Positions 7,190-61,062 of a DNA stretch of 64,000 nt are shown here, one piece after another (the stretch's first letter is position 1; the number at the start of each line of letters is the position of its first letter). Made by a program: the position numbers and the translations under genes. Under the pieces are notes generated by a model. The model searched no databases. It saw only the letters and a list, made by a program, of their open reading frames with translations, and was not told the origin of the DNA. This DNA is from an uncultured Bacilli bacterium (GTDB lineage: Bacteria; Bacillota_I; Bacilli_A; RF39; UBA660). Where the stretch lies: positions 719-64,718 of the forward strand of contig CALVKO010000001.1 of NCBI GenBank assembly GCA_944332725.1, given 5' to 3'.

Positions 7190-7265
7190 AAAAATGCACA
7201 ATATTTTCAAAATACTGCGCATTTTTATGTTTTTGAAGTTCCATTTTGCACAATCATTGTGCATT
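7190..7265. promoter_or_regulatory. Operator/promoter module, copy 1, upstream of the helicase gene. It contains a perfect palindrome TGCACAATCATTGTGCA and an imperfect palindrome TGCACAATATTTTCAAAATACTGCGCA.
   Basis: Inverted repeats are visible directly. A ~40-bp block plus a ~20-bp block are repeated almost identically at 8390-8460. Confidence 0.5.
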
Positions 7266-7267
7266 TT

Positions 7268-8350
7268 TTAATTTTTTCCAACAAAAACGTCATATATTTC
7301 TTTATATCGATATCCTAACTTAGCATGAGTTGAATCACTTACTATAATACCTAAATTAATTAATTGATCAATTAAAATGGATATTGTATTTCTTGATACT
7401 CCTGTTTCTTCTTCGATTTCCTTTTTTGTAAATACAATTTGATGCATCATAGCAGGCATTATTCGATAAACAGCATTACTATTTAAAGTCTTAATTTTCT
7501 CCATATCTTTTTTATAGATTTTGTTAATCATATTTATTTTAGCAATATAATTATTACATTGTTCAATTATACATTGTAAGAAAAATTTTATAAAACCAAC
7601 AATATTACCTTTTCTACTTTCATTTAAAAATTTATGATAGCTAGGTTTATATAATTCTAAAACTTCTGACAAGAAAAGAATAGGCTCATCTTCAGTTAAT
7701 TTAGCTAATTGAATAGATATCAAAGCACGACCTAATCTTCCATTTCCATCTCGATATGCATGAATAGTTTCAAATTGATAATGTGATATTGCAAGATTAA
7801 TAAAAATAGGATCTATAAAATTATTATTCATGTATTTAAACAAATTATTAAGTAGAATTGGAACATCTTCTGGAATTGGCGGTACAAAAATTGCTTCATT
7901 GATACTACAACCTGTTGGTCCAATCCAATTTTGAATAGTTCTTATCTTGCCTGGTTCTTTTTCATTTCCTCTTACACTATCTAATAAAATTTTATGGATA
8001 GCATTAACAAAATGAATATTTATATCGTTATTTTCAACTAAATAATCTTTTGCATACTCTATAACTTTTTTTAAATTTTGTATTTCCAAATTATCATCTG
8101 TTTTAGGCATGTACTTTAAATAATACATTTCATCTTGTGAAATTTGTGTCCCTTCTATTTGTGTAGATTTTAAACTTTCACTTAATATAATAGAATCTAA
8201 AAAATATTTTGAATCAAATTCAACATTTCTTAAATATGACTTATATTCACCGTATTTATAATTTGCTTCAGCTATTAAATTTAAAAGTTCTTTATCTATA
8301 TTATATTCGATTGGTAATTCTTTAACTTTCATTGGATTCATCTTTATCAC
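7268..8350 (-). CDS. Fic family protein (Fido domain, probable AMPylase) with a C-terminal winged HTH.
   Basis: Canonical Fic motif HAYRDGNGRLGRAL (HxFx(D/E)GNGR). Confidence 0.85.
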   Translation of the reverse strand: MIKMNPMKVKELPIEYNIDKELLNLIAEANYKYGEYKSYLRNVEFDSKYFLDSIILSESLKSTQIEGTQISQDEMYYLKYMPKTDDNLEIQNLKKVIEYAKDYLVENNDINIHFVNAIHKILLDSVRGNEKEPGKIRTIQNWIGPTGCSINEAIFVPPIPEDVPILLNNLFKYMNNNFIDPIFINLAISHYQFETIHAYRDGNGRLGRALISIQLAKLTEDEPILFLSEVLELYKPSYHKFLNESRKGNIVGFIKFFLQCIIEQCNNYIAKINMINKIYKKDMEKIKTLNSNAVYRIMPAMMHQIVFTKKEIEEETGVSRNTISILIDQLINLGIIVSDSTHAKLGYRYKEIYDVFVGKN

Positions 8351-8389
8351 CTAAACTAATAATAACATATAAATGGTTACTTGTAAACG

Positions 8390-8460
8390 CAAAAATGCAC
8401 AATATTTTTAAAATACTGCACATTTTTTATACTCTACTTTGCACAATCATTATACATTCT
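8390..8460. promoter_or_regulatory. Operator/promoter module, copy 2, upstream of the Fic gene. It is a direct repeat of 7190-7265.
   Basis: AAAAATGCACAATATTTTTAAAATACTGCACATTTTTTAT...TTTGCACAATCATTATACATT matches copy 1 at roughly 37 of 39 positions in the first block. A -35/-10 pair (TTTACA-17-TATTAT) and an AGGTGA RBS follow. Confidence 0.5.
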
Positions 8461-8977
8461 TAAAATAAATGTTATTTTCTTTTTCATATCCTAAATTAGT
8501 TATTTCACCATGCCCCGGATATAATGTTATATCATTTGGATATTTTTTTATTTTATTAATTGACTTAAACATGTCAAATTCATCACTATTATCTAAGTCA
8601 ACTCTTCCTATTGAATCTTTAAATATAAAATCACCAACAAACATTATTTTTTCTTTTTCAAAATAAATTGTTATACAAGTATTATCATGGCCTTTAGTAT
8701 GAATAACTTTAAACTTAAAATTATTTATACTATATTCATTTTCATCTAATTTATAATCGTAGACTTTTATATTGTATTTTTTTATTAATTCATTTAAAGC
8801 ACCAATATGATCAAAATGATAATGAGTAATAATAATTCCAACTGGTTTTAAATTACCAATTTTATTTATTATTTTATCTATTTCATCACCCGGATCAATT
8901 ATTAAACACTCATTTTCAATACTTACAATATAACAATTTGTTTCTAAATATCCCACTTTAACTTTATCTATTTTCAT
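8450..8977 (-). CDS. MBL-fold metallo-hydrolase.
   Basis: THYHFDHIG (HxHxDH) zinc-binding motif. Size is ~175 aa. Confidence 0.8.
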   Translation of the reverse strand: MKIDKVKVGYLETNCYIVSIENECLIIDPGDEIDKIINKIGNLKPVGIIITHYHFDHIGALNELIKKYNIKVYDYKLDENEYSINNFKFKVIHTKGHDNTCITIYFEKEKIMFVGDFIFKDSIGRVDLDNSDEFDMFKSINKIKKYPNDITLYPGHGEITNLGYEKENNIYFKNV

Positions 8978-9445: not shown

Positions 9446-10325
9446 CCTTTATAATAGCATTTTTAAATATTTCTTTAATTATTTTTTCTTTCAAATCAGT
9501 AGGTATTGGACTACCTGATGCATTAAAATGTCCACCACCATTATGTTGTTTTGCTATTACGCTTAAATCAACCTTGTTATTACCACGATAACTAATACTT
9601 TTATCGACATTAATTAAAATTACATAATCTAAATAATCATATTTATTGATTAAATAATTACCTAATTCACTTATATTTCGCTCAGCAAAAACAACACCTA
9701 CTTTTTTATTATCTAAAAATATTTCAATTATTTCTTTTTCTTCAACATATCTTTTTATTCTTAATTTTTCTAATTCAATTAAATTCAAATCTTCCCTACT
9801 ATATAATTCTTTATTATTTATAATTACATTATAAAATTTATCGATAAATAATTCTCGACCATATATTTTAAATAATATTACAATATTACTTGCTTCTTCT
9901 TTACTAGTAATACTGAAATCATAAGTATCCATTGTTCTTACATGTTCAACTAATTTTTTAGTTACATCTTTATTTAATAATTCATTATTATATTTTTCTA
10001 ATAGATATTTATAATATAAAGTTGTTCCCGATTGCTTAATACCATCAATATCAACCACTTTTATAAACGGATATTTATTCATATTGATATTACTTAAATG
10101 ATGATCAAATACCAAAACATTTTTATTGTTATTTAAAATATAATCTGCTGTTTCTTCACTTATATTTAAATCAACTATAATTATTTCTTTATCTATATTA
10201 TCCATTACATATTTATCAACTTCATCTATATCGGCTAAAATATATTCAAAATTATCAAATACTAATTTAGATAATATAATAGGAGTTGCACCATCTGGAT
10301 CGGCTTTATGACTAATTATTAACAT
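9429..10325 (-). CDS. DHH-family phosphoesterase (NrnA-like).
   Basis: DHH motif VFDHHLSN and DHHA1 motif GGGHFNASG. Confidence 0.75.
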   Translation of the reverse strand: MLIISHKADPDGATPIILSKLVFDNFEYILADIDEVDKYVMDNIDKEIIIVDLNISEETADYILNNNKNVLVFDHHLSNINMNKYPFIKVVDIDGIKQSGTTLYYKYLLEKYNNELLNKDVTKKLVEHVRTMDTYDFSITSKEEASNIVILFKIYGRELFIDKFYNVIINNKELYSREDLNLIELEKLRIKRYVEEKEIIEIFLDNKKVGVVFAERNISELGNYLINKYDYLDYVILINVDKSISYRGNNKVDLSVIAKQHNGGGHFNASGSPIPTDLKEKIIKEIFKNAIIKDDNND

Positions 10326-10938
10326 TTAATACCTCCTTAACTGGACCATAAGATTTTCTATATCCATCAATTAATCCATATTTATGAATCGCTTCGATAT
10401 GCTTTTTAGTGGGATATCCTTTATGGGAAGCAAAACCATACATAGGATATTTTTCATCTAATTCATACATCATACTATCACGAGTTACCTTAGCTACAAC
10501 ACTTGCAGCAGCAATAGAAATACTTTTAGCGTCACCTTTAATAATACTAGTAGTTGGAATATCTAAATTAATTGGCATAGCATCAATTAAAACGTGTTCC
10601 AAATTAATTTGTTCTCTCACCTTATTTATAGCTATTATCATTGCTTTCCTACTTGCTTCATAAATATTTATTTCATCTATTTCTTCAGGTGATACAATAC
10701 CTATACCATATGCTACACAATGATTAATTATATAATCATAAAATAAATTTCTTTTTTTCTCAGATAATTTTTTTGAATCAGTTAATCCTTCTAATATAAA
10801 ATCTTTAGGAAGTACAACACAACTAGCAACAACTGGTCCAATTAGAGGACCACGTCCTACTTCATCTACACCACCTATATATTTAATACCTTTACTATAT
10901 AATTCATTTTCGTATTCATATAAATTCATTCTTACCAC
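10312..10938 (-). CDS. rnhB: Ribonuclease HII.
   Basis: GVDEVGRGPLIGPVVASCVVL N-terminal catalytic motif. Length is ~208 aa. Confidence 0.9.
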   Translation of the reverse strand: MVRMNLYEYENELYSKGIKYIGGVDEVGRGPLIGPVVASCVVLPKDFILEGLTDSKKLSEKKRNLFYDYIINHCVAYGIGIVSPEEIDEINIYEASRKAMIIAINKVREQINLEHVLIDAMPINLDIPTTSIIKGDAKSISIAAASVVAKVTRDSMMYELDEKYPMYGFASHKGYPTKKHIEAIHKYGLIDGYRKSYGPVKEVLNVNN

Positions 10939-11092
10939 CTTTTTTATTATATCACCTAAAAATGTTTTTTTATATGTAAAAAAGTTATTTTTTTAAAATT
11001 TGCTATTACACGAAAAATTTTTTTGTGTAGATAATTGATATGATATAAGTAATTATGATATTGCAATTAATGTTGATACATTGAACGTAGAA

Positions 11093-11120
11093 AAAAACTT
11101 ACATTAATTGTAAGTTTTTC
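11093..11120 (-). terminator. Rho-independent terminator hairpin downstream of the DUF1016 pseudogene. It is nearly identical to the hairpin at 12861-12896.
   Basis: AAAAACTTACA-TTAAT-TGTAAGTTTTT. Confidence 0.5.
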
Positions 11121-11150
11121 ACTTTTTTTATTATATAATAAAGCATTACT

Positions 11151-11922
11151 TTAGTTATTTTCTAATATTTTTTCAACTTCACTAATTAATTCTTCTTTAT
11201 TTGGAATATAATATGTGTATGTTGAAGCAAATATATTATTAGATAATCCACCTAAAGCATATTCCATAGTTACACCTTTTTTACCAGTACAAAGAATAAT
11301 TCCTACTGTTTCATTATCAAATTCATCTTTAATTTCTTTATTATAATAATTAACATACATATTCATTTGCCCTGCATATTCTAGTTTCATATCATCCATT
11401 TTTAAATCTATTAAAACATATGATCTTAATATCTTATTATAAAAGCAAAGGCCAACATAATAATGTGTATAATGATGAATCAATTTGTCTTTTTAATTCT
11501 CTTTTAGACCATTTAGAATTAATGCACTCTTTTTCATAAAATTTTCTTTCATCATCATCTTCAATATAAATTAAATAACAATAATGACTCCAACTCAAAT
11601 TTCCAGCCAGTGGTTGGAAATTTTTGTACCTAATATAAAATAGTCTCATATTATATAAACCAGATAAACTAAATCCTGTTCCAAATTTATTAGTTAATTT
11701 TTTAGATAATTTTTTTAATACATCTTTTCCATAATCTGCTCTAATATTTCCGTTTTGTTCATTTTCCACAATAATTTTACCAATCATAAAATTTGTTTCA
11801 ATTAAAGTATTATTTATTTGATAAACCATTTTGGTTTTATTTTCAGTAATTACATTTGATATTTGATTATATATATTAGTTATTATTTTATCACTATTTT
11901 TTTCTACTACATTTGTTTGCAT
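11151..11922 (-). pseudogene. YhcG/DUF1016 PD-(D/E)xK nuclease family gene, decayed by an internal deletion plus frameshift.
   Basis: Two overlapping ORFs (11437-11922 and 11151-11483) align to the N- and C-terminal thirds of the intact paralogs at 36364-37398 and 47327-48382 (LSWSHY..., IDLK..., YVNYY..., GILL... blocks). The central block around the GFxFxGxQ motif, which contains motifs essential for the nuclease fold, is absent. Confidence 0.7.
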
Positions 11923-12125
11923 TTTTATTCCTCCTAAAGTTATAATATTTATTATTTTCTTACACTAATTAACATTTTTTAATGTATTATAATTTTATCA
12001 CAAATTTATAGTTCTAAAACATTTTCTTTACTTATTTTAATATGTCTTTCAATACAATATATAAATATTTTTAGTTGCAATATTGCTTATTTAATGATAA
12101 AATAATGTGCATAGGAGTTGATAAA

Positions 12126-12875
12126 ATGAATGTTTCTTACACTTATATCGATGGTAAAGCAATAATTTTTGATGAAAACGGAAATCAAGTACCAATTAAT
12201 TATTATAATAATTTAGATGATGTATTGATCCAAGAAAATGTAATAGAAACTATTGAAAATAAAATAAAAGAATTAGGCAACATAAAAATTTTACCTAAAA
12301 AGAGATTTATTCCATTTACAACAATTTGTGCCACTATTGTCATATTAGTAGCGCCTTTAATATTAGGTTTAATATTTGGAATAAATATGTATACGACTTC
12401 TGTTAGTACTGCTTTTGGAGAAATGAATTTGTTTAAAATGATAGCGATTATTTGTGGAGTTACAATTGAACCAGTTGCAATAATTACTGATATTTTAAAT
12501 CATTCAATATATAATGATTTTGTTAAACATAACAATGCAAAAGTTAGTGAATTAGAATTTTTAAAAAGTAAATTAATTAAGGAAAAAGAAAAATTAAATT
12601 CTTTAAAAAAGGAAAGCTTTGAATGTGAAGAAAAGAAAGATTTTAAAACAGTAAAAGTAAATGATATAGAAGAATTAAAACAACTTAAAAATATGTTACT
12701 TTTATATTATGATTTAGGATATAATTCTAAAAAATATTATACTTATCAACAACAAGGAAAATTAAGAAAAAAACTAGCTAAAAAATATAGTGAAGAAGAT
12801 ATTAAATTAATTGAACAATATTTAGAAGAAAAAGGACCAACATTAGTAAAAAAACAACTAAAAAACTTACATTGA
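12126..12875 (+). CDS. Hypothetical membrane protein.
   Basis: An AGGAG RBS lies 8 nt upstream of the ATG at 12126; the ORF-track TTG start at 12075 is less likely. A central hydrophobic segment is followed by a K/E-rich C-terminal coiled coil. Confidence 0.55.
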   Translation: MNVSYTYIDGKAIIFDENGNQVPINYYNNLDDVLIQENVIETIENKIKELGNIKILPKKRFIPFTTICATIVILVAPLILGLIFGINMYTTSVSTAFGEMNLFKMIAIICGVTIEPVAIITDILNHSIYNDFVKHNNAKVSELEFLKSKLIKEKEKLNSLKKESFECEEKKDFKTVKVNDIEELKQLKNMLLLYYDLGYNSKKYYTYQQQGKLRKKLAKKYSEEDIKLIEQYLEEKGPTLVKKQLKNLH

Positions 12876-12896
12876 TTTGTAAGTTTTGTTTTTATA
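12861..12896. terminator. Terminator hairpin overlapping the stop of the preceding + gene and lying 3' of tRNA-Cys.
   Basis: AAAACTTACA-TTGATT-TGTAAGTTTT followed by a T-run. Confidence 0.55.
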
Positions 12897-12897
12897 T

Positions 12898-12972
12898 TGG
12901 AGGGCCCAGCCGGACTTGAACCGACGCTCGGGGAGTTGCAGTCCCATGCCTTACCAACTTGGCTATGGACCC
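12898..12972 (-). tRNA. tRNA-Cys (anticodon GCA).
   Basis: On the minus strand: GGGTCCA acceptor stem pairing with TGGGCCC, D-arm GCCAAGTTGGTAAGGC, anticodon loop CTGCAAC (U33-GCA-A37), T-arm GGTTCAAGTCC, and an encoded 3' CCA. Local GC content is much higher than the surroundings. Confidence 0.85.
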
Positions 12973-13033
12973 ATGTAAATAAATTATAGCAAAATATTTT
13001 TACTTAATCAAGTATTTTACTATAATTTATTCA

Positions 13034-14785
13034 TTATTTAAATAAATTATACTTAATTATATTATTTGAAGTTTCAATTAATGATTTAGCATACTCTTCT
13101 TTTTCATTAATATATTCTTTTGTAACTTCACTATATTCTTTATAATCTTCAAGTTGATTATTATAATATATTTTATTAGTAACCCAATTACCATTTGGAA
13201 AAACTACTATATTATCATCCAAATTAAATATATCATTGCCTAAAGCATATTTAGTATCAACGCCAAACATATTACCAATAGTTGGCATTACATCAATAGA
13301 TCCCATTAATGTATCTATTTCTTGATGTTTGATATCTTCTCCCCAAATAATTAAAGGAACTTTTGTTAATTCTTCATATTCATAAAAATCTATTTTTTTG
13401 CCTAAATATTTTTCATATTCTTTTTTTGTAAATTTGGCATCATGATCACCATAAATTACAATTATTATATCATCTTTATTTTCTAACTTATTAATAAATT
13501 CACCTATTGCTTCATCAGCATAATGAACTAATTTAATATAATTACCTATTTTAGTGCCTTCAGCATCACCAACATCAAATTCGATTCCTTCGGTATAAAA
13601 AGGTGTATGATTAGTTAGCATAATTAAAGTACCATAAAATTTATCATATTCTAAATTGTTAATAATGTCGACTGATTGATTAAAGAACGATTTATCGGAT
13701 AATCCTAAACCTATTTTATCACTCAAATCATAGTCATCATAACAATAAAACCTATCATAACCTATTTTTTTATACATTTTATCACGATTCCAATATGAGC
13801 ACAAATTTCCATGCATACTAAATGTATAATATCCTTTTTCCTTAAAAGACTTTATCATTGAATTATATTCATTATTTTCATAATTAACAAATACTGTACC
13901 AGTAGCAATCGGTAATATTGAGTTAGTTATCGTAAATTCAGTATCACTGCTAGTTCCAACGCTTTCTTCTGAATAATAATTAGTAAAATAAATTCCTTCA
14001 TTTTTTAATTTATATAAATTAGGTGTTATAGTTTCATTTATAAACATACTTTGGATACTTTCCGCGTGAATAAATAAAACACTTTTATCTTTAAATATAT
14101 TTGTATATTCATTAGTTTCTGTTTTCTTATTACTATAAAACTGCTCTACTTCTTCTTTAGCATCTTCATAACCACAATATGGACAAATAAATTTAGAAGT
14201 CATATAAAATAAATCATTTAATTGATATGTATAAATTCCCATATTTCTTACAACATATGACTTATTCCAATCGTGTTTTAAACGGTAAATATCATTAGTA
14301 TTAAAAGTTAATAAAGATATCACTAAAATTATAAAATAAATTAAAATATTTTGCTTAAATGATTTTATATCTTTTTTATTAGAAATTTTTTTATATAATA
14401 TTATCATTAAAATTATTTGCCACAAAAATACAAAATCATTTAATTGAATAACCCCTGTTACTGCTTCACTTGGAAGAAGAAACGCTAAATAAAGAGAACT
14501 TAACAAATATATTGAAGCAAAATCACTATAATTATTATAATACATTGAATTAATTATACATAAAGATGTTAATATTATAGATGTGATTAAAAAATATAAA
14601 TTTCTTTTTTTAAATAAAAAAGAAAAAGCATAAATAAACATTAAGAAACTTAAATCAAATAACAAAAATCTTAAATCTTTAAAACCTACTGTTAAATAAA
14701 GTAAAATACAACTATTAATTAAATTTGAAATAATAAAAAATATTCCTAAATCTTTTAATGATGATGGAAGAATAAACTTACGCAT
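13034..14785 (-). CDS. LTA synthase family protein (membrane-anchored sulfatase-like phosphoglycerol transferase).
   Basis: N-terminal multi-TM region followed by an extracellular sulfatase-like domain (YFTNYYSEESVGTSSDTEFT, HTPFY). Confidence 0.8.
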   Translation of the reverse strand: MRKFILPSSLKDLGIFFIISNLINSCILLYLTVGFKDLRFLLFDLSFLMFIYAFSFLFKKRNLYFLITSIILTSLCIINSMYYNNYSDFASIYLLSSLYLAFLLPSEAVTGVIQLNDFVFLWQIILMIILYKKISNKKDIKSFKQNILIYFIILVISLLTFNTNDIYRLKHDWNKSYVVRNMGIYTYQLNDLFYMTSKFICPYCGYEDAKEEVEQFYSNKKTETNEYTNIFKDKSVLFIHAESIQSMFINETITPNLYKLKNEGIYFTNYYSEESVGTSSDTEFTITNSILPIATGTVFVNYENNEYNSMIKSFKEKGYYTFSMHGNLCSYWNRDKMYKKIGYDRFYCYDDYDLSDKIGLGLSDKSFFNQSVDIINNLEYDKFYGTLIMLTNHTPFYTEGIEFDVGDAEGTKIGNYIKLVHYADEAIGEFINKLENKDDIIIVIYGDHDAKFTKKEYEKYLGKKIDFYEYEELTKVPLIIWGEDIKHQEIDTLMGSIDVMPTIGNMFGVDTKYALGNDIFNLDDNIVVFPNGNWVTNKIYYNNQLEDYKEYSEVTKEYINEKEEYAKSLIETSNNIIKYNLFK

Positions 14786-17812: not shown

Positions 17813-20800
17813 TTAATACCTACAATTATCAAAATTATTTGGATCATTATATGATCTATATCTATCATCTACGCATACTCCAGGTTGATTTTTAGCACCT
17901 GTTATATCTATTAAATAAGATAAATAATCGCTTATACAAGTTTTACCAGTTCCTGTATTACATTTAAAATCATATGTTTTTCCACTATAACTTCCATAAT
18001 ATTCAGCATAAGAATTTTCATCATTATAATTTCTTATTTCTTTAATAATCGAAGGCGTTAAGATAAATGTATACATTGGTTCTTCAGAATAAATTTCGTG
18101 TCCTTCTACATCACGATTATTTAATATAAATTCATCAACTACAGGATTAGTATTTGAGCAATTTGTTCTATCACCTAATCCATAACACCAATTTGAACCT
18201 GTTTCTCTACCACTAGCATCTATATCAGGGAATGGATCATATAAATCTATTGGTCTATATATTAAATTAATATCACCTTTATTAGGATTATTAGGATCAT
18301 TTGGATTATCTGGATTATCTGGATCATTTGGATTATCTGGATCATCTTCAGGTATTAATTCTGAAAAAACCTCAAATTGACATTGCCAATTACCATACTT
18401 TTCTTTATCTATCGCATCTAATATGCTATCAACAGCAGTTGATTTATTTGGAACTTTGTAACCTAAATTACTATATGTAATTGACAATTCACCATTACCA
18501 TATTCTTGACCATAAATACCATCTGGGGTTTTATATTCTACTGGAAAATTACTATATCCTAAATAAATGTAATTAAAAGTTTTTCCTTGTGAAATATATT
18601 GTGATTTTAATGTTTCTAGTTGTGATGCATTAAATGATATATTATCGTCTTTATTAATATATTCATATATACCAGCAGGAATATTAAAATCAATATTAGC
18701 ACCTTTGGTCATTTCAACTTTTGTACATTTTTTTATACCTAACATTTGTCTCGTACATTTATTTGTACTTGTATTACAACTTGTAAGTACTTCAATACCA
18801 CCACTTACAGTTTGGCAATCATTTTTATTCACTTTTTCTGTATATTCGATTTTTTTATCCATTTCTTCATTAACACTATATAATCCAGTAGAACCATTAA
18901 TTGTATAATTATATTTAACTATTGCACTAGGTTCGACAATATATAACCATTGATCCCACGATGAGCCTTCACCATCTGCAGTTGACATTGAACTTATCCA
19001 AGTTGCTCCATTATCTTCATTATAACATTTCTTCATTTGATCATATATATATTTAGCATCGTCTTTCATATTATCCCAAGTTTGATACTTTGAATCTCTA
19101 CCAAACCTGTCATCACTAGGATAACCACTACAAGAACAAGCACTACCTGCAGAACCATGTGCATATGTCGCTCCACTTCCATAAGTAGCAGAATCCCATT
19201 TAATACATGTTTCATCCCAGTATCTATGCCTACGACATCCTCCACCACAAGTACCCTTACCATCAGCACATGGATGTGTTGGATACCAAGATACACATTC
19301 GCTGCAACCATTCTTTACAGTATATTGTTTCACACTAGCTTGCTGATCTCTAGCAACTAAATATGTATTAAATGCTTTTTCTATTTCATTATTTTTATTT
19401 TTTAAATCAGTAGTGAATTTATTCCATTCAATTGATTTAGTTTTACATGTTCTACTACCACTAACACTATGTCCATTCCATACAAAATGTTGACCTGCTT
19501 TTACTTTAATTGTATTAGAATTAAATGCTCCAGTTAAGTTTTCTATACAATAAACTTCACAATAATCTGAAGTAATATTTTCATCATAATATGTTAATGG
19601 TTGATTCTTATCAGACCATTTATGTTCATTTATTGTATACATAGCATTTTCATCTGAAAAAACACAATATTTCCAATAATCTTCTTCATTTAATTCCTGT
19701 GATGTATCAGTGTAAAAAACATTTTCTTGATTGATACATGTTCCCACATTATAACTTGGTGTACAATTATATTTTTTCTTAATATCAACCTTTTCATCTT
19801 GAGTTATACAACCGGCAGATTGATAACTAGAAATTGTCCAATTTGTTCCGAATTGTGAATTATACAATTCAAAACATTGCTTATATAATTCTTTATTTTT
19901 ATCTAAATATTCATCAGTAAATGACGTTGAAGGGTATAAAGGTAATTTCTGACAAGATCTTATTATTTTGTTTTTCTCGTTGGTTTGTTCATTATCCGAA
20001 GTACAATTATAAAGACAATTATAAAAACGCCAAGTATTTCCCCATCCTTCTTGAGAACGACATTTTGAATAACATCCATAATATCCTAAAGTACTTTCCT
20101 CATCTAATTTATTAAAATCAACACTTTCGCAGGTTGCTGTTGCAAAACCACAATTTAGATTTTCATATTTTATATAATCCCATTGCGTAACTACACCAAC
20201 AGACGATGGATTCGTTTCCGAAATTTTATTGACTTGTTCTTTTACAGACTCAACAAATGAAACAAAGAAACTTTGTTTCTGTACAAATACACTTTTAATC
20301 TGATTTTTTACTAAATTATATAATTCAATATTATTAGAGTTTTTATATGCATCATAAACACCATAACATGTACATTCATTTATGTACCATACTTTATCAG
20401 CAACATTTGTCTTACCATTAACAGTATATTTTATACCATTGGCAACCTCTGGTAATGCATAAATACCATTTAAACCACTTCTTCTATAGGTAGATTCTAA
20501 TTTACTCATAAAACTAGAGTAATTACTAATACCACTATTTACTTCTTCACATGTCAGACTTAATTTAACAGTATCTTTAAAATACACTAAACCTATTCCT
20601 GCACCTTTATTGCCAGTAACATATTGTTCTGCTAAAATATCACTACTTTTACCACCACTAGTTTTAGCACACACATTTTGAAGCGAAACGCCACCGCTAT
20701 AAGAAGCAGATTCACTTAAATCAACAATATTCAAATTTCCATTAAAATAACTAGTACTTGATGCTCCTGGAACATTTTTATATCTTGTAATTATATCACC

Positions 20801-21598
20801 AGTGGTTAAAGCAGCACAAGGTAAAACTCTACCCATTGCTGAATTTACTGGTTTCCAGTTTACATACCCTAAAAATCCTAATTCATAACTTGTTCCAAGA
20901 TACATTTTGCCATCAAAAGTCAACATCGTAATAGGCTCAACAGTAATCCACAAATTATTAAACAAAGCATCATCAGAATTAGAAGATGGATTAACAGATT
21001 CAGCAATATTTTTTAAATCATCTGCAGATAATCCAAATAATGTTGAATACAAACTAACGATTCTTGAATCATTTATATCCAATTTATCCGTATCAGCCCA
21101 TTCCCATATTCTATCCAAATCCCAATTTTCAATATATGATTGTAATGAAACATTAAAAGGTGAAAATAAACTACTTAAACTTTCGGCAGTATAAATATAA
21201 CCCTTAAAACTTTCCCATGGATTGCCATCACCAGATTTAGTTAATTTATTATAAACATTACACCCAGATGTTCCCATTATATATTGAACTTTACTACATC
21301 CTGTCCCTAATACAACATAATTATCACTACTGCCTAATATATTATAATGTTCGTTATATGCTATTATATTAGACGAATGACCAACTTGGGTACCATCTGT
21401 TTTTAATAATGTAACTCTCATACCCCTAATATATTTTGGACCATCTGAAGTTGCAAAATTTGTCCAATAATTATACTTATCAGTATTACTACCAGAACCT
21501 GAAGGCAAACTCGTAATATCCGTTGCAGCATTAATCTTTACATAACATACTGCTATACTAATCGCTAAAATTAATAAAACAAAATACTTTTTTTTCAT
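17813..21598 (-). CDS. Large (1261 aa) secreted Cys-rich protein of unknown function with a low-complexity DPDNPN repeat.
   Basis: N-terminal signal peptide MKKKYFVLLILAISIAVCYVKINA. Roughly 50 cysteines. Imperfect tandem repeats encode PEDDPDNPNDPDNPDNPNDPNNPN (nt ~18290-18360). The single frame is uninterrupted; internal small ORFs on other frames are spurious. Confidence 0.7.
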   Translation of the reverse strand: MKKKYFVLLILAISIAVCYVKINAATDITSLPSGSGSNTDKYNYWTNFATSDGPKYIRGMRVTLLKTDGTQVGHSSNIIAYNEHYNILGSSDNYVVLGTGCSKVQYIMGTSGCNVYNKLTKSGDGNPWESFKGYIYTAESLSSLFSPFNVSLQSYIENWDLDRIWEWADTDKLDINDSRIVSLYSTLFGLSADDLKNIAESVNPSSNSDDALFNNLWITVEPITMLTFDGKMYLGTSYELGFLGYVNWKPVNSAMGRVLPCAALTTGDIITRYKNVPGASSTSYFNGNLNIVDLSESASYSGGVSLQNVCAKTSGGKSSDILAEQYVTGNKGAGIGLVYFKDTVKLSLTCEEVNSGISNYSSFMSKLESTYRRSGLNGIYALPEVANGIKYTVNGKTNVADKVWYINECTCYGVYDAYKNSNNIELYNLVKNQIKSVFVQKQSFFVSFVESVKEQVNKISETNPSSVGVVTQWDYIKYENLNCGFATATCESVDFNKLDEESTLGYYGCYSKCRSQEGWGNTWRFYNCLYNCTSDNEQTNEKNKIIRSCQKLPLYPSTSFTDEYLDKNKELYKQCFELYNSQFGTNWTISSYQSAGCITQDEKVDIKKKYNCTPSYNVGTCINQENVFYTDTSQELNEEDYWKYCVFSDENAMYTINEHKWSDKNQPLTYYDENITSDYCEVYCIENLTGAFNSNTIKVKAGQHFVWNGHSVSGSRTCKTKSIEWNKFTTDLKNKNNEIEKAFNTYLVARDQQASVKQYTVKNGCSECVSWYPTHPCADGKGTCGGGCRRHRYWDETCIKWDSATYGSGATYAHGSAGSACSCSGYPSDDRFGRDSKYQTWDNMKDDAKYIYDQMKKCYNEDNGATWISSMSTADGEGSSWDQWLYIVEPSAIVKYNYTINGSTGLYSVNEEMDKKIEYTEKVNKNDCQTVSGGIEVLTSCNTSTNKCTRQMLGIKKCTKVEMTKGANIDFNIPAGIYEYINKDDNISFNASQLETLKSQYISQGKTFNYIYLGYSNFPVEYKTPDGIYGQEYGNGELSITYSNLGYKVPNKSTAVDSILDAIDKEKYGNWQCQFEVFSELIPEDDPDNPNDPDNPDNPNDPNNPNKGDINLIYRPIDLYDPFPDIDASGRETGSNWCYGLGDRTNCSNTNPVVDEFILNNRDVEGHEIYSEEPMYTFILTPSIIKEIRNYNDENSYAEYYGSYSGKTYDFKCNTGTGKTCISDYLSYLIDITGAKNQPGVCVDDRYRSYNDPNNFDNCRY

Positions 21599-36282: not shown

Positions 36283-36349
36283 ATCTTCACTCCTAACAAT
36301 AACATTATACTATAAATATATGATTTAATCAATATTAAAATAATTAATA

Positions 36350-36377
36350 AAAAATCCTAACAACTAGGATTTTTCAA
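36350..36377. repeat. Direct repeat copy A (about 28-30 bp) containing the stop and terminator hairpin. It is identical to 37453-37482.
   Basis: AAAAATCCTAACAACTAGGATTTTTCAA. The TAG stop of the DUF1016 gene lies inside the hairpin at the same position as the gatB TAG in copy B. Confidence 0.7.
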
Positions 36378-37398
36378 TTAAATTTAAATTTTTCTTTTCT
36401 TCTTCAATAATTTCAATTAATTGTTCTTCGGTAGGAAAATTTAATCTATATTGTGATGCAAAAATAGTTTTATTATCTTTTGGTAAAGTATATTTTACAA
36501 CTGTTTTATTTTTATCAGTTGATAATAAAATACCAATAGTTGAATTTTCATCATCTTCCTTAATTACTCGATCATAATAATTAACGTATAATTGCATTTG
36601 TCCAATATCTTGCGGAGTTATTTTAGCAGTTTTTAAATCTATTATCACAAAACATTTCATAATTCTATTATAAAATACTAAATCCGGATAAAAATGATCT
36701 TCTTCGATTGTTATTCTAACTTGAGAACCAACAAACATAAAACCACGACCTAATTCAAGTAAAAACTCTTTTAAATGTTTTAAAATGTTTTTTTCTAAAT
36801 CCGACTCTAAATAAATTGTATTTTCTTTAATGTCTAAAAATTCTAATATAAAAGGATCTTTGACCAAATCTTCTAATTTATTTATAATATGTCCTTTATT
36901 AGCCAGCTCCAAAACTTTTTCTTTATCCTTTGACAATTTTAAACGTTCATATAATAAAGAGCATATTTGCCTTTGTAATTCTCTTACACTCCACATAGAA
37001 TTAATTGCTTCATGCAAATAAAAATTTCTTTTATCATTATCATTTATTTTTAATATTTCTAAATAATGAGACCAACTTAATTTGGAAGACACTGTTGTCC
37101 AAATTGGATATGTTAAATAAAATTTTCTCATTGTTCTTAAATTTCTAGATGAAAAACCTTTCCCAAATTCTTTAGTTAATTTTAATGACAATTTTTCTAA
37201 AACTGCTTCACCATAAGTTGCCCGTTCATCACCTTTTTGAATAGTCATTATAATTTTACCGATATTCCAATAAAGATTTAACATTTCTGTATTAACGGTT
37301 GTATATAATTTCTTACGACTATTAATTACTAAGCTTTTTATTTCATTAAACGTTAATTCAAATACTTGATTATCTATTTCTTGTAACATTTTAATCAC
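36364..37398 (-). CDS. YhcG/DUF1016 family PD-(D/E)xK nuclease, intact.
   Basis: N-terminal YhcG_N-like region (LYWNIGK, KLSWSHY) and a C-terminal nuclease core (ELGRGFMFVGSQ, IDLK). It is a paralog of 47327-48382. Confidence 0.8.
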   Translation of the reverse strand: MIKMLQEIDNQVFELTFNEIKSLVINSRKKLYTTVNTEMLNLYWNIGKIIMTIQKGDERATYGEAVLEKLSLKLTKEFGKGFSSRNLRTMRKFYLTYPIWTTVSSKLSWSHYLEILKINDNDKRNFYLHEAINSMWSVRELQRQICSLLYERLKLSKDKEKVLELANKGHIINKLEDLVKDPFILEFLDIKENTIYLESDLEKNILKHLKEFLLELGRGFMFVGSQVRITIEEDHFYPDLVFYNRIMKCFVIIDLKTAKITPQDIGQMQLYVNYYDRVIKEDDENSTIGILLSTDKNKTVVKYTLPKDNKTIFASQYRLNFPTEEQLIEIIEEEKKNLNLIEKS

Positions 37399-37452
37399 CT
37401 TATATTAAGCATTATACTAAACTTATAATTAATTGTCAATTATAAATTAACA

Positions 37453-37482
37453 AAAAAATCCTAACAACTAGGATTTTTTCAA
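37453..37482. repeat. Direct repeat copy B, the native gatB stop plus terminator hairpin.
   Basis: AAAAAATCCTAACAACTAGGATTTTTTCAA. The gatB TAG stop lies within the stem. Confidence 0.7.
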
Positions 37483-47326: not shown

Positions 47327-48382
47327 CTATAAAAAATCATTTTCTAATCTTTTTTCGATATCTTCAATACTAGGTAATGTATTTTCTAGAAATTCTGGTA
47401 TTTCTGATAAAATTTTATATTCACTCACACCAATTGGTTTATTAATATCTTTTAGTGCTAATTCAGCAGTTACTTTCTTTTTGTCTTTACATAACAAAAT
47501 ACCAAAAGTAGGATTATCTTTTTCATCTTTAATATACTTATCTACAGCACTTAAATAAAAATTAAGTTTTCCTGCATATTCTGGTTTAAATTCAGTTGTT
47601 TTTAGTTCAATTACAACATAACTTCTAACCTTTAAATTATAAAATAATAAATCAATATAATAATCTTCATTATCTATCTCTAAATGATATTGTCTACCTA
47701 TGAATGCAAAGCCATTACCTAATTCTAATAATAATTTGGTAATATTGGATATTAATTGTCGCTCAATATCTAATTCTTTTAAATCTTTATTATTTATTAT
47801 AAAATCAAATATATAAGGATCTTTTAATAAATATGCAACTTGTTCATTATTTGGACTTGGTAGCGTATTATCAAAATTTGTAGTTTTATTCTCTAATAAT
47901 GCTTGTCTTTCATATAATTTACTTGCTATTTGATGGATTATTATAGGTCTAGACCAACCATTTTTAACAGTTTCTTCAATATACCAATTTCTAATATTTT
48001 TTTCTTTTACTTGATCCATTATCGTTGTAATAGATGACCAAGGAATTTTTGCAACATAATGTTGCAAAAATTCATCATTGTCAAATTCAGTTGCAAATTT
48101 TTGCATATACCTTAAATTCCTAGCAGACATTCCTTTAATATTAGGAAATTCTATTTTTAAATCTTTTGCTAAAGTATCTATAAATGATAATCCCCATTTA
48201 TTATTCTCTATTAATTTTAAACCAATTTTATAATACATTAATATCAAATCTTTATTAGCATTGTCAATTATTTTATTTCTTGTAGTTATTAAAGTATTTT
48301 TTATATCATTTAAAACTTCAAAATATTGATTATTATTTTCTAGCATTATTACACTTCCTTTTAAATATTTTTTAAAACTCAT
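47327..48382 (-). CDS. YhcG/DUF1016 family PD-(D/E)xK nuclease, intact (third paralog).
   Basis: ELGNGFAFIGRQ and VVIELK motifs. The N-terminal region is homologous to the other copies. Confidence 0.8.
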   Translation of the reverse strand: MSFKKYLKGSVIMLENNNQYFEVLNDIKNTLITTRNKIIDNANKDLILMYYKIGLKLIENNKWGLSFIDTLAKDLKIEFPNIKGMSARNLRYMQKFATEFDNDEFLQHYVAKIPWSSITTIMDQVKEKNIRNWYIEETVKNGWSRPIIIHQIASKLYERQALLENKTTNFDNTLPSPNNEQVAYLLKDPYIFDFIINNKDLKELDIERQLISNITKLLLELGNGFAFIGRQYHLEIDNEDYYIDLLFYNLKVRSYVVIELKTTEFKPEYAGKLNFYLSAVDKYIKDEKDNPTFGILLCKDKKKVTAELALKDINKPIGVSEYKILSEIPEFLENTLPSIEDIEKRLENDFL

Positions 48383-60995: not shown

Positions 60996-61062
60996 TTTAT
61001 CCCTTCTATTCTTAATAATAATTATAAATTAAATATTAATTTTAGTCAAGAAAAAAAGGAAC

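What the first reader, a model, noticed from the sequence alone, without database searches (positions are those of the whole stretch)
11093..12975. A second DUF1016 locus shows the same architecture: near-identical terminator hairpins bracket a decayed DUF1016 gene and a membrane-protein gene next to tRNA-Cys
AAAAACTTACA-TTAAT-TGTAAGTTTTT at 11093-11119 and AAAACTTACA-TTGATT-TGTAAGTTTT at 12861-12887 are near-identical hairpins. They flank 11151-12875, which holds the DUF1016 pseudogene and the 12126-12875 gene. The second hairpin abuts the 3' end of tRNA-Cys, and tRNA genes are common integration sites. Together with the gatB locus this suggests DUF1016 cassettes repeatedly integrate by duplicating a terminator hairpin, and that this copy has since decayed.
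Basis: partly seen in the sequence, partly recalled or inferred. Interest (0 to 1): 0.55.

Follow-up and report, generated by a model that had tools for sequence, protein, structure and literature searches.

The report
Defence-gene cassette inserted by copying a terminator
A small two-gene accessory cassette (a now-dead DUF1016 nuclease and a membrane protein) sits behind tRNA-Cys between two copies of that tRNA's terminator hairpin; related genomes have a single hairpin and no cassette, and the same insertion-with-duplication pattern recurs around other single defence genes.

Summary
Two hairpins with the same 11-12-nt stem, at 11091-11119 and 12860-12889, are the only two of their kind in the window. 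They bracket a DUF1016 pseudogene and a 249-aa membrane-protein gene. A related species (L021) has tRNA-Cys, one hairpin, then rnhB, so the cassette is an insertion or deletion bounded by a duplicated terminator. Another species (L022) carries the intact DUF1016 ortholog, and the window copy has lost 263 nt.

The pattern is not specific to DUF1016. A SoFic gene in the window (7268-8350) sits between about 80-nt repeats of a terminator unit, with a single unit in six relatives. Two genes of unknown function in relatives show the same pattern. One relative keeps both hairpins without DUF1016.

Across metagenomes, DUF1016 genes in 8 of 35 independent contexts are flanked by 26-150-nt direct repeats of local sequence; 0 of 96 neighbouring genes are. 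tRNA-directed integration is not supported: there is no integrase and no tRNA sequence in the repeat.

The closest known phenomenon is 'insertion with long target duplication', described for restriction-modification genes, whose mechanism is unknown. I file this as a new member of that kind. It extends the kind to single-gene defence candidates, with intrinsic terminators as the duplicated target. The mechanism proposed here is inferred, not shown.

The parts
12898..12972 (-). tRNA-Cys (GCA), the upstream gene whose terminator is duplicated
   Evidence: ARAGORN; Rfam tRNA 60 bits
12860..12898 (-). Repeat copy A2: terminator module directly behind tRNA-Cys (hairpin 12860-12889). It also holds the last codons and the stop of the convergent membrane-protein gene.
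   Evidence: orthologous single copy in L019 and L021
12126..12875 (+). 249-aa membrane / coiled-coil protein ('TM249'), function unknown, a real conserved family; part of the cassette
   Evidence: ORF. No Pfam, PADLOC or NCBIfam hit. 490 cluster representatives with full-length matches. Orthologs in L022, L026 and L035 at the same site.
11923..12125 (.). Divergent promoter region between TM249 and DUF1016; conserved in L022, and partly kept in L026 after loss of the DUF1016 coding sequence
   Evidence: alignment
11151..11922 (-). DUF1016 / YhcG (PADLOC PDC-S02) pseudogene: one 263-nt deletion at about 11471 removes the N-terminal half of the PD-(D/E)XK domain and shifts the frame
   Evidence: Pfam; alignment to intact L022 8071-9105, 93% nt identity; PADLOC hit for the intact ortholog
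11092..11132 (-). Repeat copy A1: duplicated terminator module (hairpin 11091-11119) that now ends the DUF1016 transcript and precedes the rnhB promoter
10312..10929 (-). rnhB (RNase HII), the conserved downstream flank of the hotspot
   Evidence: Pfam; synteny in 16 related species
37453..37482 (-). gatB locus, upstream repeat copy: hairpin containing the gatB stop codon TAG, followed by a TTGACA-17-TATAAT promoter
36364..37389 (-). Intact DUF1016 / PDC-S02 gene (341 aa from the ATG). Its last codons (..EKS*) are encoded by the downstream repeat copy, mirroring gatB's ..KKS*.
   Evidence: absent between gatB and the next gene in L041-L048
36349..36377 (-). gatB locus, downstream repeat copy (26 nt identical to the upstream copy)
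8391..8479 (-). SoFic locus, upstream copy of the terminator unit; overlaps the last codons and stop of the MBL-fold gene 8450-8977
7268..8350 (-). Fic/DOC gene (PADLOC SoFic) inserted between the MBL-fold gene and the UvrD-like helicase
   Evidence: Pfam; PADLOC E 3e-84; absent in L019, L020, L021, L023, L025 and L028, present in L024 and L026
7190..7278 (-). SoFic locus, downstream copy of the terminator unit (two hairpins, outer ends complementary)

Best explanation
The region 11092-12898 is an accessory cassette. It holds the membrane-protein gene TM249 and, divergently transcribed, a DUF1016/YhcG nuclease that is a phage-defence candidate (PDC-S02). It was placed immediately behind the intrinsic terminator of tRNA-Cys by a duplicative insertion. 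The terminator module (the few bases after the tRNA, the A-tract, the hairpin and the T-tract) now exists twice. One copy still ends the tRNA-Cys transcript and, from the other side, the TM249 transcript. The other copy ends the DUF1016 transcript and shields rnhB.

This is the phenomenon described for restriction-modification genes as 'insertion with long target duplication'. In this lineage it is a general route by which promoter-plus-ORF cassettes, mostly defence candidates, enter gaps between core genes.

Shown: the presence or absence of the cassette with one versus two terminator copies; recurrence at other loci and with other genes; and the decay of DUF1016.

Inferred: (a) The duplication arises de novo when the two ends of the incoming DNA are joined at staggered positions on either side of the terminator, in the A-rich and T-rich microhomologies that border it. 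This could happen through break repair or through template switching at a hairpin-stalled fork. (b) Once made, the two copies act as handles for homologous recombination. That recombination deletes the cassette, leaving one copy; can re-insert an excised circle; and homogenises the copies. (c) Cassettes whose last gene runs in the same direction as the upstream gene are kept because the copied terminator then serves them. I find no evidence that DUF1016 itself catalyses the step.
For: Empty and filled sites. L021 has tRNA-Cys, one hairpin and rnhB within 244 nt. L019 has one hairpin followed by the rnhB-proximal flank. The window, L022 and L035 have the cassette between two copies.

Second, cleaner case. 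The SoFic gene lies between two copies of a 79-nt unit. That unit is single in six relatives and contains the upstream gene's stop codon. In L026 the copies are 79/79 identical.

Third and fourth cases. A 297-aa gene in L020 lies between two copies of the same tRNA-Cys hairpin. A 161-aa gene in L035 lies between about 60-nt repeats made of the last 15 nt of the upstream gene plus its hairpin, with a single copy in L021 and L023.

gatB locus. DUF1016 is absent between gatB and the next gene in eight contigs of relatives.

An unbiased scan of 295 ORFs in the window and its relatives singles out only these cassettes.

Across metagenomes, 7 of 63 DUF1016 ORFs against 0 of 96 neighbouring ORFs have significant flanking repeats (Fisher p 0.0012). 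This corresponds to 8 of 35 independent contexts, each repeat made of local sequence. Examples are YceG|RuvA, GAPDH and upstream of hsdS.

Junction pattern. The left copy's T-tract is followed within 3-11 nt by the cassette's -35 box. The right junction lies in or just after the last codons of the cassette ORF, in A-rich microhomology shared with the upstream gene's end: SoFic GGAAAAAAT against MBL TTTAAAAAT, and DUF1016 TTGAAAAA against gatB TTGAAAAA.

Exchange between copies. In the sibling species L052, both gatB-locus hairpins carry the loop AATTT/AAATT, whereas both window copies carry GTTGT.

No transposase or integrase domain was found in the cassette genes that were scanned.

Precedent: Furuta et al. 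2010 (PMC2853133) report repeats of 46 bp and more that overlap the 3' end of the upstream gene, are unique in the genome, and come with no mobility genes.
Against: No donor sequence is known, so microhomology at the left junctions cannot be assessed. In a genome with 24% G+C, A- and T-runs are everywhere. For the gatB locus, no relative with a single copy of that hairpin was found; relatives lacking DUF1016 also lack the hairpin. There, both copies could have arrived with the cassette. L021 could be a secondary deletion rather than the ancestral state, so the direction of change is not established. Cassette divergence between species (DUF1016 93% nt, SoFic 90-92%) resembles that of core genes (88-92%). 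The events are therefore old, and fresh junctions are not available. Many insertions in the same hotspots carry no duplication. Examples are the PDC-S01 gene between DHH and GNAT, the three-gene insert in L035, and the third DUF1016 at 47327-48382. Most DUF1016 loci elsewhere (27 of 35 contexts) show none either. The control genes in the enrichment test are mostly core genes, not other accessory genes.
Confidence: 0.7

Rival explanations
1. Campbell-type traffic only. The cassette plus one terminator copy is excised as a small circle by recombination between the two copies. It passes to a related cell and re-enters by a single homologous crossover at the resident terminator, which regenerates the two copies. 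On this view no special duplicating step exists. The first arrangement arose from an ordinary insertion next to a terminator, followed by imprecise circle formation.
For: Empty sites hold exactly one copy. The same cassette always sits at the same locus in several species, while the window's closest relatives (L019, L020) lack it. The two copies change in concert between the window and L052. The repeats include non-palindromic parts, namely the last codons of the upstream gene, as expected for a stretch of homology. In the window, the tRNA-side loop matches L019 and the rnhB-side loop matches L022, as a crossover between a recipient and a donor copy would give. Insertions directly adjacent to a terminator without duplication exist as possible precursors (L035). 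There is a phage precedent with demonstrated mini-circles (PeSL, PMC2839356).
Against: It cannot create repeats of local sequence at a new locus. Yet DUF1016 genes sit between local repeats in at least 8 unrelated contexts in different organisms. Homology of 26-40 nt is a poor substrate for RecA-dependent crossover. No circles have been observed.
Confidence: 0.3
2. Nuclease-driven homing-like insertion. The DUF1016 PD-(D/E)XK nuclease, in cis or in trans from one of the three copies in this genome, cuts both strands at the base of the extruded terminator hairpin or cruciform. This gives a staggered break as long as the palindrome. Fill-in and joining to a cassette then duplicate the terminator.
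For: DUF1016 belongs to the restriction-endonuclease-like superfamily (PMC1189080 listed). Flanking repeats are enriched around DUF1016 genes in many genomes. Long target duplications were first seen with restriction genes, and a double-strand break was suggested as the common cause. The repeats end at the T-tract. The outer ends of the 79-nt unit are complementary to each other. Hairpin loops are found flipped between copies and between species, as expected if hairpin intermediates are processed.
Against: The same architecture surrounds SoFic, a 161-aa gene and a 297-aa gene, none with a nuclease domain. The repeats extend beyond the palindrome into the upstream gene's last codons or the post-tRNA spacer. 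Several repeats elsewhere have no hairpin (L112, L118, L065). No biochemical data exist for any DUF1016 protein, and there is no solved structure. Most DUF1016 genes have no repeats.
Confidence: 0.1
3. Site-specific integration at the tRNA gene by an integrase, leaving att repeats, as for genomic islands.
For: The cassette lies next to tRNA-Cys. The gap between tRNA-Cys and rnhB is a hotspot that ranges from 244 nt to 7.8 kb in 16 species. The hairpins have the 11-6-11 geometry of tyrosine-recombinase core sites (read from the sequence).
Against: No integrase is present in the cassette or nearby. The repeat does not include any tRNA sequence. The three loci in the window use three unrelated repeats, one of them 79 nt long with two hairpins. 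The other targets are protein-gene terminators.
Confidence: 0.03
4. Coincidence: two independent terminators that happen to look alike in an AT-rich genome.
For: The stems are short (6 specific base pairs plus A:T runs) and the genome has 24% G+C.
Against: 0 matches in 100 shuffles against 2 observed. The alignment score exceeds all 3000 random pairs. The one-copy versus two-copy states correlate with absence or presence of the cassette across species, and the pattern recurs at four other loci.
Confidence: 0.01

Closest known systems
Insertion with long target duplication of restriction-modification genes (Nobusato et al. 2000, as cited in Furuta, Abe & Kobayashi 2010, NAR 38:2428, PMC2853133)
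   Same: A gene or few genes with no transposase or integrase is absent from a colinear related genome. It is flanked by direct repeats tens to hundreds of bp long. The repeat is single in the empty genome, unique to the locus, variable in length, and often overlaps the 3' end of the upstream gene. The cargo is defence-related and nuclease-encoding. The mechanism was unknown in that work as well.
   Different: The cargo here is not a restriction-modification pair. It is a set of solitary genes: DUF1016/PDC-S02, SoFic and unknowns. The duplicated target is typically an intrinsic terminator module. The repeats can be shorter than their 30-bp criterion (26-40 nt at two loci). The host is an uncultured low-G+C Bacilli lineage. 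Evidence of concerted change and loop flipping of the copies is added here.
PeSL (promoter-early stem-loop) cassettes of T4-type phages (Arbiol et al. 2010, PMC2839356; Comeau et al. 2014, PMC4122927)
   Same: Non-essential single ORFs in variable regions are bracketed by copies of a small terminator (plus promoter) motif. Recombination between the copies explains gain, loss and replacement, and can release mini-circles.
   Different: PeSLs are a family of similar motifs repeated many times in one phage genome. Here each locus has its own unrelated terminator, present in just two copies, so the copies are local duplications and not a dispersed motif. The setting is a bacterial chromosome rather than a phage genome. 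No circles have been demonstrated.
Chromosomal hotspots / minimal mobile elements between conserved genes (concept recalled from memory: Saunders & Snyder, Neisseria; Oliveira, Touchon & Rocha, hotspots)
   Same: The same gap between two core genes (tRNA-Cys|rnhB, MBL|UvrD, DHH|GNAT) holds different whole-gene cassettes in different species, which fits exchange by flanking homology.
   Different: That concept does not involve or explain duplication of the target. These sources were not checked in the paper library.
Integron gene cassettes with attC hairpins
   Same: Compact single-gene units whose 3' end overlaps an imperfect palindrome; arrays of cassettes separated by hairpins (L020, L090).
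   Different: No integron integrase was seen. The hairpins lack the R''/R' core sites (GTTRRRY). The cassettes carry their own promoters. The two flanking hairpins are copies of the resident site rather than cassette-specific attC sites.

Membership tests
Insertion with long target duplication (criteria of Furuta et al. 2010) | The inserted segment is absent from a related genome that is colinear on both sides | tested here: met
   tRNA-Cys|rnhB: L021 is empty. SoFic: six empty relatives. gatB: L041-L048 lack DUF1016.
Insertion with long target duplication (criteria of Furuta et al. 2010) | Direct repeats flank the insert and align with a single copy in the empty genome | tested here: met
   Met for the tRNA-Cys locus and the SoFic locus. 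Inconclusive for gatB, where no single-copy hairpin was found.
Insertion with long target duplication (criteria of Furuta et al. 2010) | The repeat is longer than 30 bp | tested here: inconclusive
   SoFic: 79-89 nt (met). tRNA-Cys locus: about 40 nt with gaps, 28-30 nt core. gatB: 26 nt exact, 29-54 nt with gaps.
Insertion with long target duplication (criteria of Furuta et al. 2010) | No transposase, integrase or other mobility gene in or beside the insert | tested here: met
   Pfam scans of cassette and neighbouring genes
Insertion with long target duplication (criteria of Furuta et al. 2010) | The repeat sequence does not occur elsewhere in the genome | tested here: inconclusive
   Unique within the 64-kb window and within about 330 kb of related loci. 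The whole genome is not available.
Insertion with long target duplication (criteria of Furuta et al. 2010) | The cargo includes restriction and modification genes | tested here: not met
   The cargo is a solitary PD-(D/E)XK protein without a methyltransferase, or SoFic, or unknown genes. For this reason it is filed as a new member extending the kind, not as a restriction-modification case.
DUF1016 / YhcG family (Pfam PF17761 + PF06250; PADLOC PDC-S02) | N-terminal DUF1016_N domain plus C-terminal YhcG PD-(D/E)XK domain above the curated thresholds | tested here: met
   Pseudogene halves score 146 and 105 bits. The intact copies at 36364-37398 and 47327-48382 match both domains. PDC-S02 E-values are 1e-126 to 1e-136.
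DUF1016 / YhcG family (Pfam PF17761 + PF06250; PADLOC PDC-S02) | Nuclease or anti-phage activity | not testable with these tools
   No solved structure by sequence search. The papers found give only predictions.
tRNA-targeting integrative island | An integrase gene, and att repeats that contain the 3' part of the tRNA | tested here: not met
   No integrase. The repeat begins after the tRNA 3' end.
Integron cassette | An attC site with R''/R' core sites, a promoterless cassette, and IntI nearby | tested here: not met
   The hairpins are simple perfect palindromes without GTTRRRY boxes. The cassettes have sigma-70-like promoters (TTGACA-17-TATAAT at 37399-37450). No integrase-like hit among the ORFs that were scanned; not every ORF of the window was scanned.
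IS / transposon with target-site duplication | A transposase, terminal inverted repeats, and a short duplication of fixed length | tested here: not met
   No transposase. The cassette ends are a promoter and an ORF end. The repeats range from 26 to 150 nt and vary in length.
PeSL-type regulatory cassettes | A conserved terminator-promoter motif dispersed in many copies across the genome | tested here: not met
   Each locus has its own sequence in two copies only. It works like a PeSL pair but is not a member of that family.

The most novel reading that the evidence does not exclude
DUF1016/YhcG proteins, like the restriction enzymes for which long target duplications were first seen, are the active agents of a transposase-less form of gene mobility. 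On this reading they are structure-specific nucleases that make staggered breaks at the base of terminator hairpins. This lets promoter-plus-ORF cassettes, their own and others' in trans, be joined in with a copy of the terminator on each side. It would give a mechanism for 'insertion with long target duplication' and would explain why solitary defence genes are found wedged between core genes and inside restriction operons.
Probability: 0.08. Interest if true: 0.9.

Novelty: new member of a known kind. Interest (0 to 1): 0.58.

Why it matters
How solitary defence genes with no mobility genes (DUF1016/PDC-S02, SoFic, PDC-S01, RhuM-Fic) come to sit between housekeeping genes is not explained by classical mobile elements. 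'Insertion with long target duplication' has been known descriptively since 2000, and its mechanism is unsolved. This lineage offers a compact set of natural examples with filled, empty and decayed states at several loci. The junctions are sharply defined by intrinsic terminators: the T-tract on one side and the last codons of the cassette ORF on the other. Together with the enrichment of such repeats around DUF1016 genes across metagenomes, this makes the question testable through circle detection, recA dependence and nuclease assays on hairpins. It also has a practical use for annotation. Paired terminator copies mark recently inserted genes, and they explain odd C-termini that are borrowed from the upstream gene.

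Tried and rejected
(1) Exact-protein look-up of rnhB from the GTG start found nothing. The ATG start gave only two same-species contigs, both with the cassette, and one of them (L002) looks chimeric.

(2) Same-species look-up with the 153-aa gene next to the gatB cassette gave no strain without DUF1016.

(3) Relatives with gatB 92-93% identical (L037-L040, L049-L050) and L051 have different genes after gatB. They could not serve as empty sites, and no single-copy gatB hairpin was found anywhere.

(4) The first two DUF1016 homolog contexts examined (L003 lexA|clpX; L011 after spoIIIAH and a tRNA) show no flanking repeats. This at first suggested a lineage-specific effect. The 80-locus metagenome scan then showed repeats in 8 of 35 contexts.

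(5) The simple terminator scan misses these hairpins because it demands at least 3 G-C pairs.

(6) Rfam finds nothing but the tRNA.

(7) Pfam, PADLOC and NCBIfam give nothing for TM249.

(8) The identity of the two 79-nt copies in L026 cannot be used as evidence of gene conversion, because the same 79 nt are also identical in L020 and in the left copy of L024.

(9) Resemblance of the hairpin arms to Firmicute dif/Xer sites (recalled from memory) was considered and dropped. There are three different sequences within 30 kb, GC skew shows no terminus, and one repeat is 79 nt long.

(10) The idea that repeat boundaries equal the palindrome boundaries, as a pure cruciform-cut model requires, fails. 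The repeats extend into the upstream gene's last codons.
Full report
WHAT IS THERE. The window has about 24% G+C and nearly all genes are on the - strand. Read in the direction of transcription (- strand), the region is ordered as follows. It starts with an LtaS-like gene (13034-14785) and tRNA-Cys (12898-12972). Hairpin A2 (12860-12889) follows. Next, on the opposite strand, is a 249-aa membrane / coiled-coil gene, here called TM249 (12126-12875). A 200-nt divergent promoter region comes next. Then come two overlapping ORFs that match DUF1016_N (11437-11922) and the last two thirds of the YhcG PD-(D/E)XK domain (11151-11483). Hairpin A1 (11091-11119) follows, then the rnhB promoter and rnhB (10312-10929).

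The two hairpins share the stem AAAAACTTACA/TGTAAGTTTTT. The pattern occurs twice in the window against zero times in 100 shuffles. The aligned repeat (11092-11132 against 12860-12898) scores above all 3000 random window pairs. Both fold as stable stem-loops followed by U-runs on the transcribed strand, with A-runs on the other side. That is the form of bidirectional intrinsic terminators.

THE EMPTY SITE. A scan of one genome per species, using the neighbouring DHH gene as query, returned 17 related species. They are uncultured Bacilli MAGs and include Candidatus Faecisoma merdavium. Mapping the window's genes on them shows conserved order: LtaS, tRNA-Cys, rnhB, DHH, (GNAT), MBL, UvrD.

The gap between tRNA-Cys and rnhB ranges from 244 nt to 7.8 kb. 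In L021 the gap is 244 nt. It holds one hairpin (AAAAACTTACATTAATTTGTAAGTTTTTTT) directly after the tRNA, followed by the rnhB upstream region. L019, one of the window's two closest relatives (the other is L020), also has a single hairpin followed by that flank.

L022 has TM249 plus an intact 344-aa DUF1016. A good hairpin lies on the rnhB side and a degenerate copy lies next to the TM249 3' end. L035 has two copies, the second degenerate, around a frameshifted TM249 only. There the DUF1016 gene and its promoter are cleanly missing. L026 has lost the DUF1016 coding sequence but keeps its promoter region.

The hairpin is found nowhere else in the window or in about 330 kb of related loci. So the cassette is an insertion or deletion polymorphism bounded by a duplicated terminator, and the hairpin is not a generic repeated terminator.

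THE PSEUDOGENE. Against L022 8071-9105, the window copy is 93% identical in nucleotides. It carries one 263-nt deletion at about 11471, which removes residues about 151-238 and shifts the frame. DUF1016 copies at this hotspot have decayed repeatedly. The window has the deletion. L026 has lost the coding sequence. L035 has lost the gene and its promoter. L034, which holds a different DUF1016 on the other strand, has one in-frame stop.

The three DUF1016 genes of the window are only 33-45% identical to one another. They are therefore separate acquisitions and not copies of one another.

TM249 has no match in Pfam, PADLOC or NCBIfam. It is nevertheless a real family, with 490 cluster representatives giving full-length matches.

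NOT ONLY DUF1016. A search for direct repeats in the window revealed a third locus. A Fic/DOC gene (7268-8350) matches PADLOC SoFic with E 3e-84. It is bracketed by 80-90-nt repeats at 7190-7278 and 8391-8479.

In six relatives the MBL-fold gene and the UvrD-like helicase are separated by a single 79-nt unit with two hairpins. The MBL stop codon lies inside the first hairpin. In L024 and L026 the Fic gene is present between two copies of the unit, and in L026 the copies are 79/79 identical. There the Fic ORF ends ..KNAQ*, using the duplicated last codons of MBL.

In L020 two copies of the tRNA-Cys hairpin bracket an unrelated 297-aa gene. In L035 a 161-aa gene is bracketed by about 60-nt repeats made of the last 15 nt of the upstream gene plus its terminator; the unit is single in L021 and L023.

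An unbiased scan of 295 ORFs in the window and its relatives singles out exactly these cassettes and the gatB DUF1016.

Other cassettes in the same hotspots are also defence candidates. One is PDC-S01 (AAA_14 + DUF4143), inserted between DHH and GNAT. Another is a Schlafen/AlbA_2 protein. Several of these carry no duplication.

THE gatB LOCUS. Identical 26-nt hairpins at 36349-36374 and 37453-37478 flank an intact DUF1016. Both gatB and DUF1016 end in ..KS* and use the TAG inside their hairpin copy. A consensus TTGACA-17-TATAAT promoter follows the upstream copy.

In eight contigs of relatives (gatB 85-86% identical), gatB is followed after 46 nt by the same next gene, without DUF1016. There is no hairpin in those contigs either. 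No single-copy version of the hairpin was found.

In the sibling species L052 (DUF1016 94% identical, same locus), both copies carry a different loop: AATTT and its complement AAATT, against GTTGT in both window copies. The two copies therefore change together, which indicates exchange between them or re-insertion.

BEYOND THIS LINEAGE. DUF1016 proteins 74-78% identical to the gatB-locus copy are very common and lie in unrelated contexts. For 80 metagenomic loci, I aligned the 300 nt upstream of each DUF1016 ORF with the region around its stop codon.

Ten of 68 loci, including the window, exceed the 99th percentile of a cross-locus null. This corresponds to 8 of 35 independent contexts. With full flanks, 7 of 63 DUF1016 ORFs against 0 of 96 neighbouring ORFs are positive (Fisher p 0.0012).

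The repeats are local sequence of 26-150 nt:
- L066/L056: a 32-nt hairpin that starts at the last base of the stop codon, between YceG and RuvA.
- L080: 148 nt after GAPDH.
- L112: a perfect 33-nt repeat hugging the ORF, just upstream of hsdS.
- L090: an array in which successive defence-candidate genes are separated by copies of a 112-nt unit and by another hairpin pair.

Some repeats contain no hairpin (L112, L118, L065). The control genes are mostly core genes. The test therefore shows that DUF1016 genes are often recent duplicative insertions. It does not show that they cause the duplication.

ANATOMY OF THE JUNCTIONS (read from the sequence). The repeated segment runs from a few nucleotides or codons before the end of the upstream gene, through the hairpin, to the end of the T-tract. 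The cassette begins within 3-11 nt of that T-tract with its own -35 box. It ends in or just after the last codons of its ORF.

The right junction lies in A-rich microhomology shared by the cassette's end and the upstream gene's end. The gene next to the downstream copy always runs in the same direction as the upstream gene, so the copied terminator serves it.

Hairpin loops are found inverted between species and between copies (L021 against L023, L035, L052).

HOW IT MOST LIKELY WORKS. Shown: a one-copy state without the cassette and a two-copy state with it, at several loci and with several genes.

Inferred, step 1: a duplicating insertion. The two ends of incoming promoter-ORF DNA are joined at staggered positions on either side of a terminator. 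This could occur by microhomology-mediated break repair or by template switching at a hairpin-stalled fork.

Inferred, step 2: the repeats then allow recombinational loss, leaving one copy; possible re-entry of excised circles; and homogenisation of the copies.

A pure Campbell/mini-circle model explains the traffic among relatives. It does not explain how local repeats appear at new loci in unrelated genomes. A DUF1016-catalysed cut at the hairpin base is attractive, but it is contradicted by non-nuclease cargo, by repeats that extend beyond the palindrome, and by repeats without hairpins. tRNA-directed integration and coincidence are rejected.

COMPARISON WITH WHAT IS KNOWN. The closest description is 'insertion with long target duplication' of restriction-modification genes (Furuta et al. 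2010, PMC2853133). That work reported repeats of 46 bp and more that are unique to the locus, overlap the 3' end of the upstream gene, come with no mobility genes, and occur mostly in competent species. Its mechanism is unknown, and a double-strand break was suggested.

The PeSL cassettes of T4-type phages (PMC2839356, PMC4122927) are a functional analogue for shuffling and mini-circles. They are, however, a dispersed motif family rather than local duplications.

The papers found on DUF1016 describe it only as a predicted PD-(D/E)XK nuclease that rides on mobile elements and sits inside restriction and BREX loci. No paper in the library links it to target duplications.

VERDICT. The insertion-with-duplication reading is right. 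The attribution to DUF1016 and to the tRNA is too narrow. I file it as a new member of a known kind: solitary defence-candidate genes inserted with long target duplication, with intrinsic terminators as the preferred target. The mechanism remains open.

Noticed in passing
window 7190-8479: A SoFic-type Fic/DOC gene (7268-8350) lies between about 80-nt direct repeats of a two-hairpin terminator unit. The unit is single in six related species, and the upstream copy overlaps the stop of the MBL-fold gene.
   Followed up: yes
window 47327-48382: A third, intact DUF1016/PDC-S02 gene, 33% identical to the gatB-locus copy, lies next to a divergent polysaccharide-flippase gene. It has no flanking direct repeat or hairpin pair.
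   Followed up: partly
L035 2042-2330 and L025 5447-5740: A variant tRNA-Cys (about 85% identical to the canonical one) is followed after about 165 nt by a 5'-truncated copy (positions 29-75) of the canonical tRNA-Cys and its hairpin. Upstream synteny (LtaS/ZIP) is lost. This looks like a separate replacement or integration event at the tRNA itself.
   Followed up: no
L037 5427-6184; L027 241-1055: Tandem duplicates of a unit of about 400 nt (consensus promoter, structured region with terminator-like hairpins, small antisense ORF) lie downstream of gatB in some relatives. It could be a small toxin-antitoxin or regulatory RNA module. Neither locus was searched against Rfam; only the window and L090 were.
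   Followed up: no
L020 6869-8129, L022/L025 10876-12152, L026 10876-11819: A PDC-S01 (AAA_14 + DUF4143) gene is inserted between the normally overlapping DHH and GNAT genes. It brings its own hairpin (GTTATTTC..GAAATAAC), immediately followed by a TTGACA -35 box. There is no target duplication.
   Followed up: partly
L090 170-5090: An array of defence-candidate genes: a 346-aa PD-Lambda-2_B-like gene, two DUF1016 genes and a RhuM-Fic gene. They are separated by repeated units: a hairpin pair at 174/1709 and 112-nt units at 2753/3974.
   Followed up: partly
L021 9169, L023 9137, L035 2344/3150, L052 2912/4019: The loop of the terminator palindrome is found in both orientations (TTAATT against AATTAA; AATTT against AAATT), between species and between the two copies in one genome. 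The hairpins are therefore flipped as units.
   Followed up: partly
L002 2760-3218: In one same-species contig, the start of the MBL-fold gene is fused to a TyrRS C-terminal S4 domain. This is probably an assembly chimera.
   Followed up: no
window 59583-62469: Two adjacent paralogous genes (470 and 468 aa) share 72-85% identical stretches at a spacing of 1471-1483 nt, which indicates a tandem gene duplication.
   Followed up: no
window 18279-18341: A run of 9-nt tandem repeats (TTATTAGGA-like) lies inside the 1261-aa ORF 17813-21598, giving a repetitive peptide segment.
   Followed up: no
WIN 37415-37430, L080 ~890, L084 upstream of the DUF1016 start: A short motif, ATTAATTATAAGT, lies 10-45 nt upstream of the DUF1016 start codon in three unrelated genomic contexts. 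This suggests that the leader travels with the gene.
   Followed up: no
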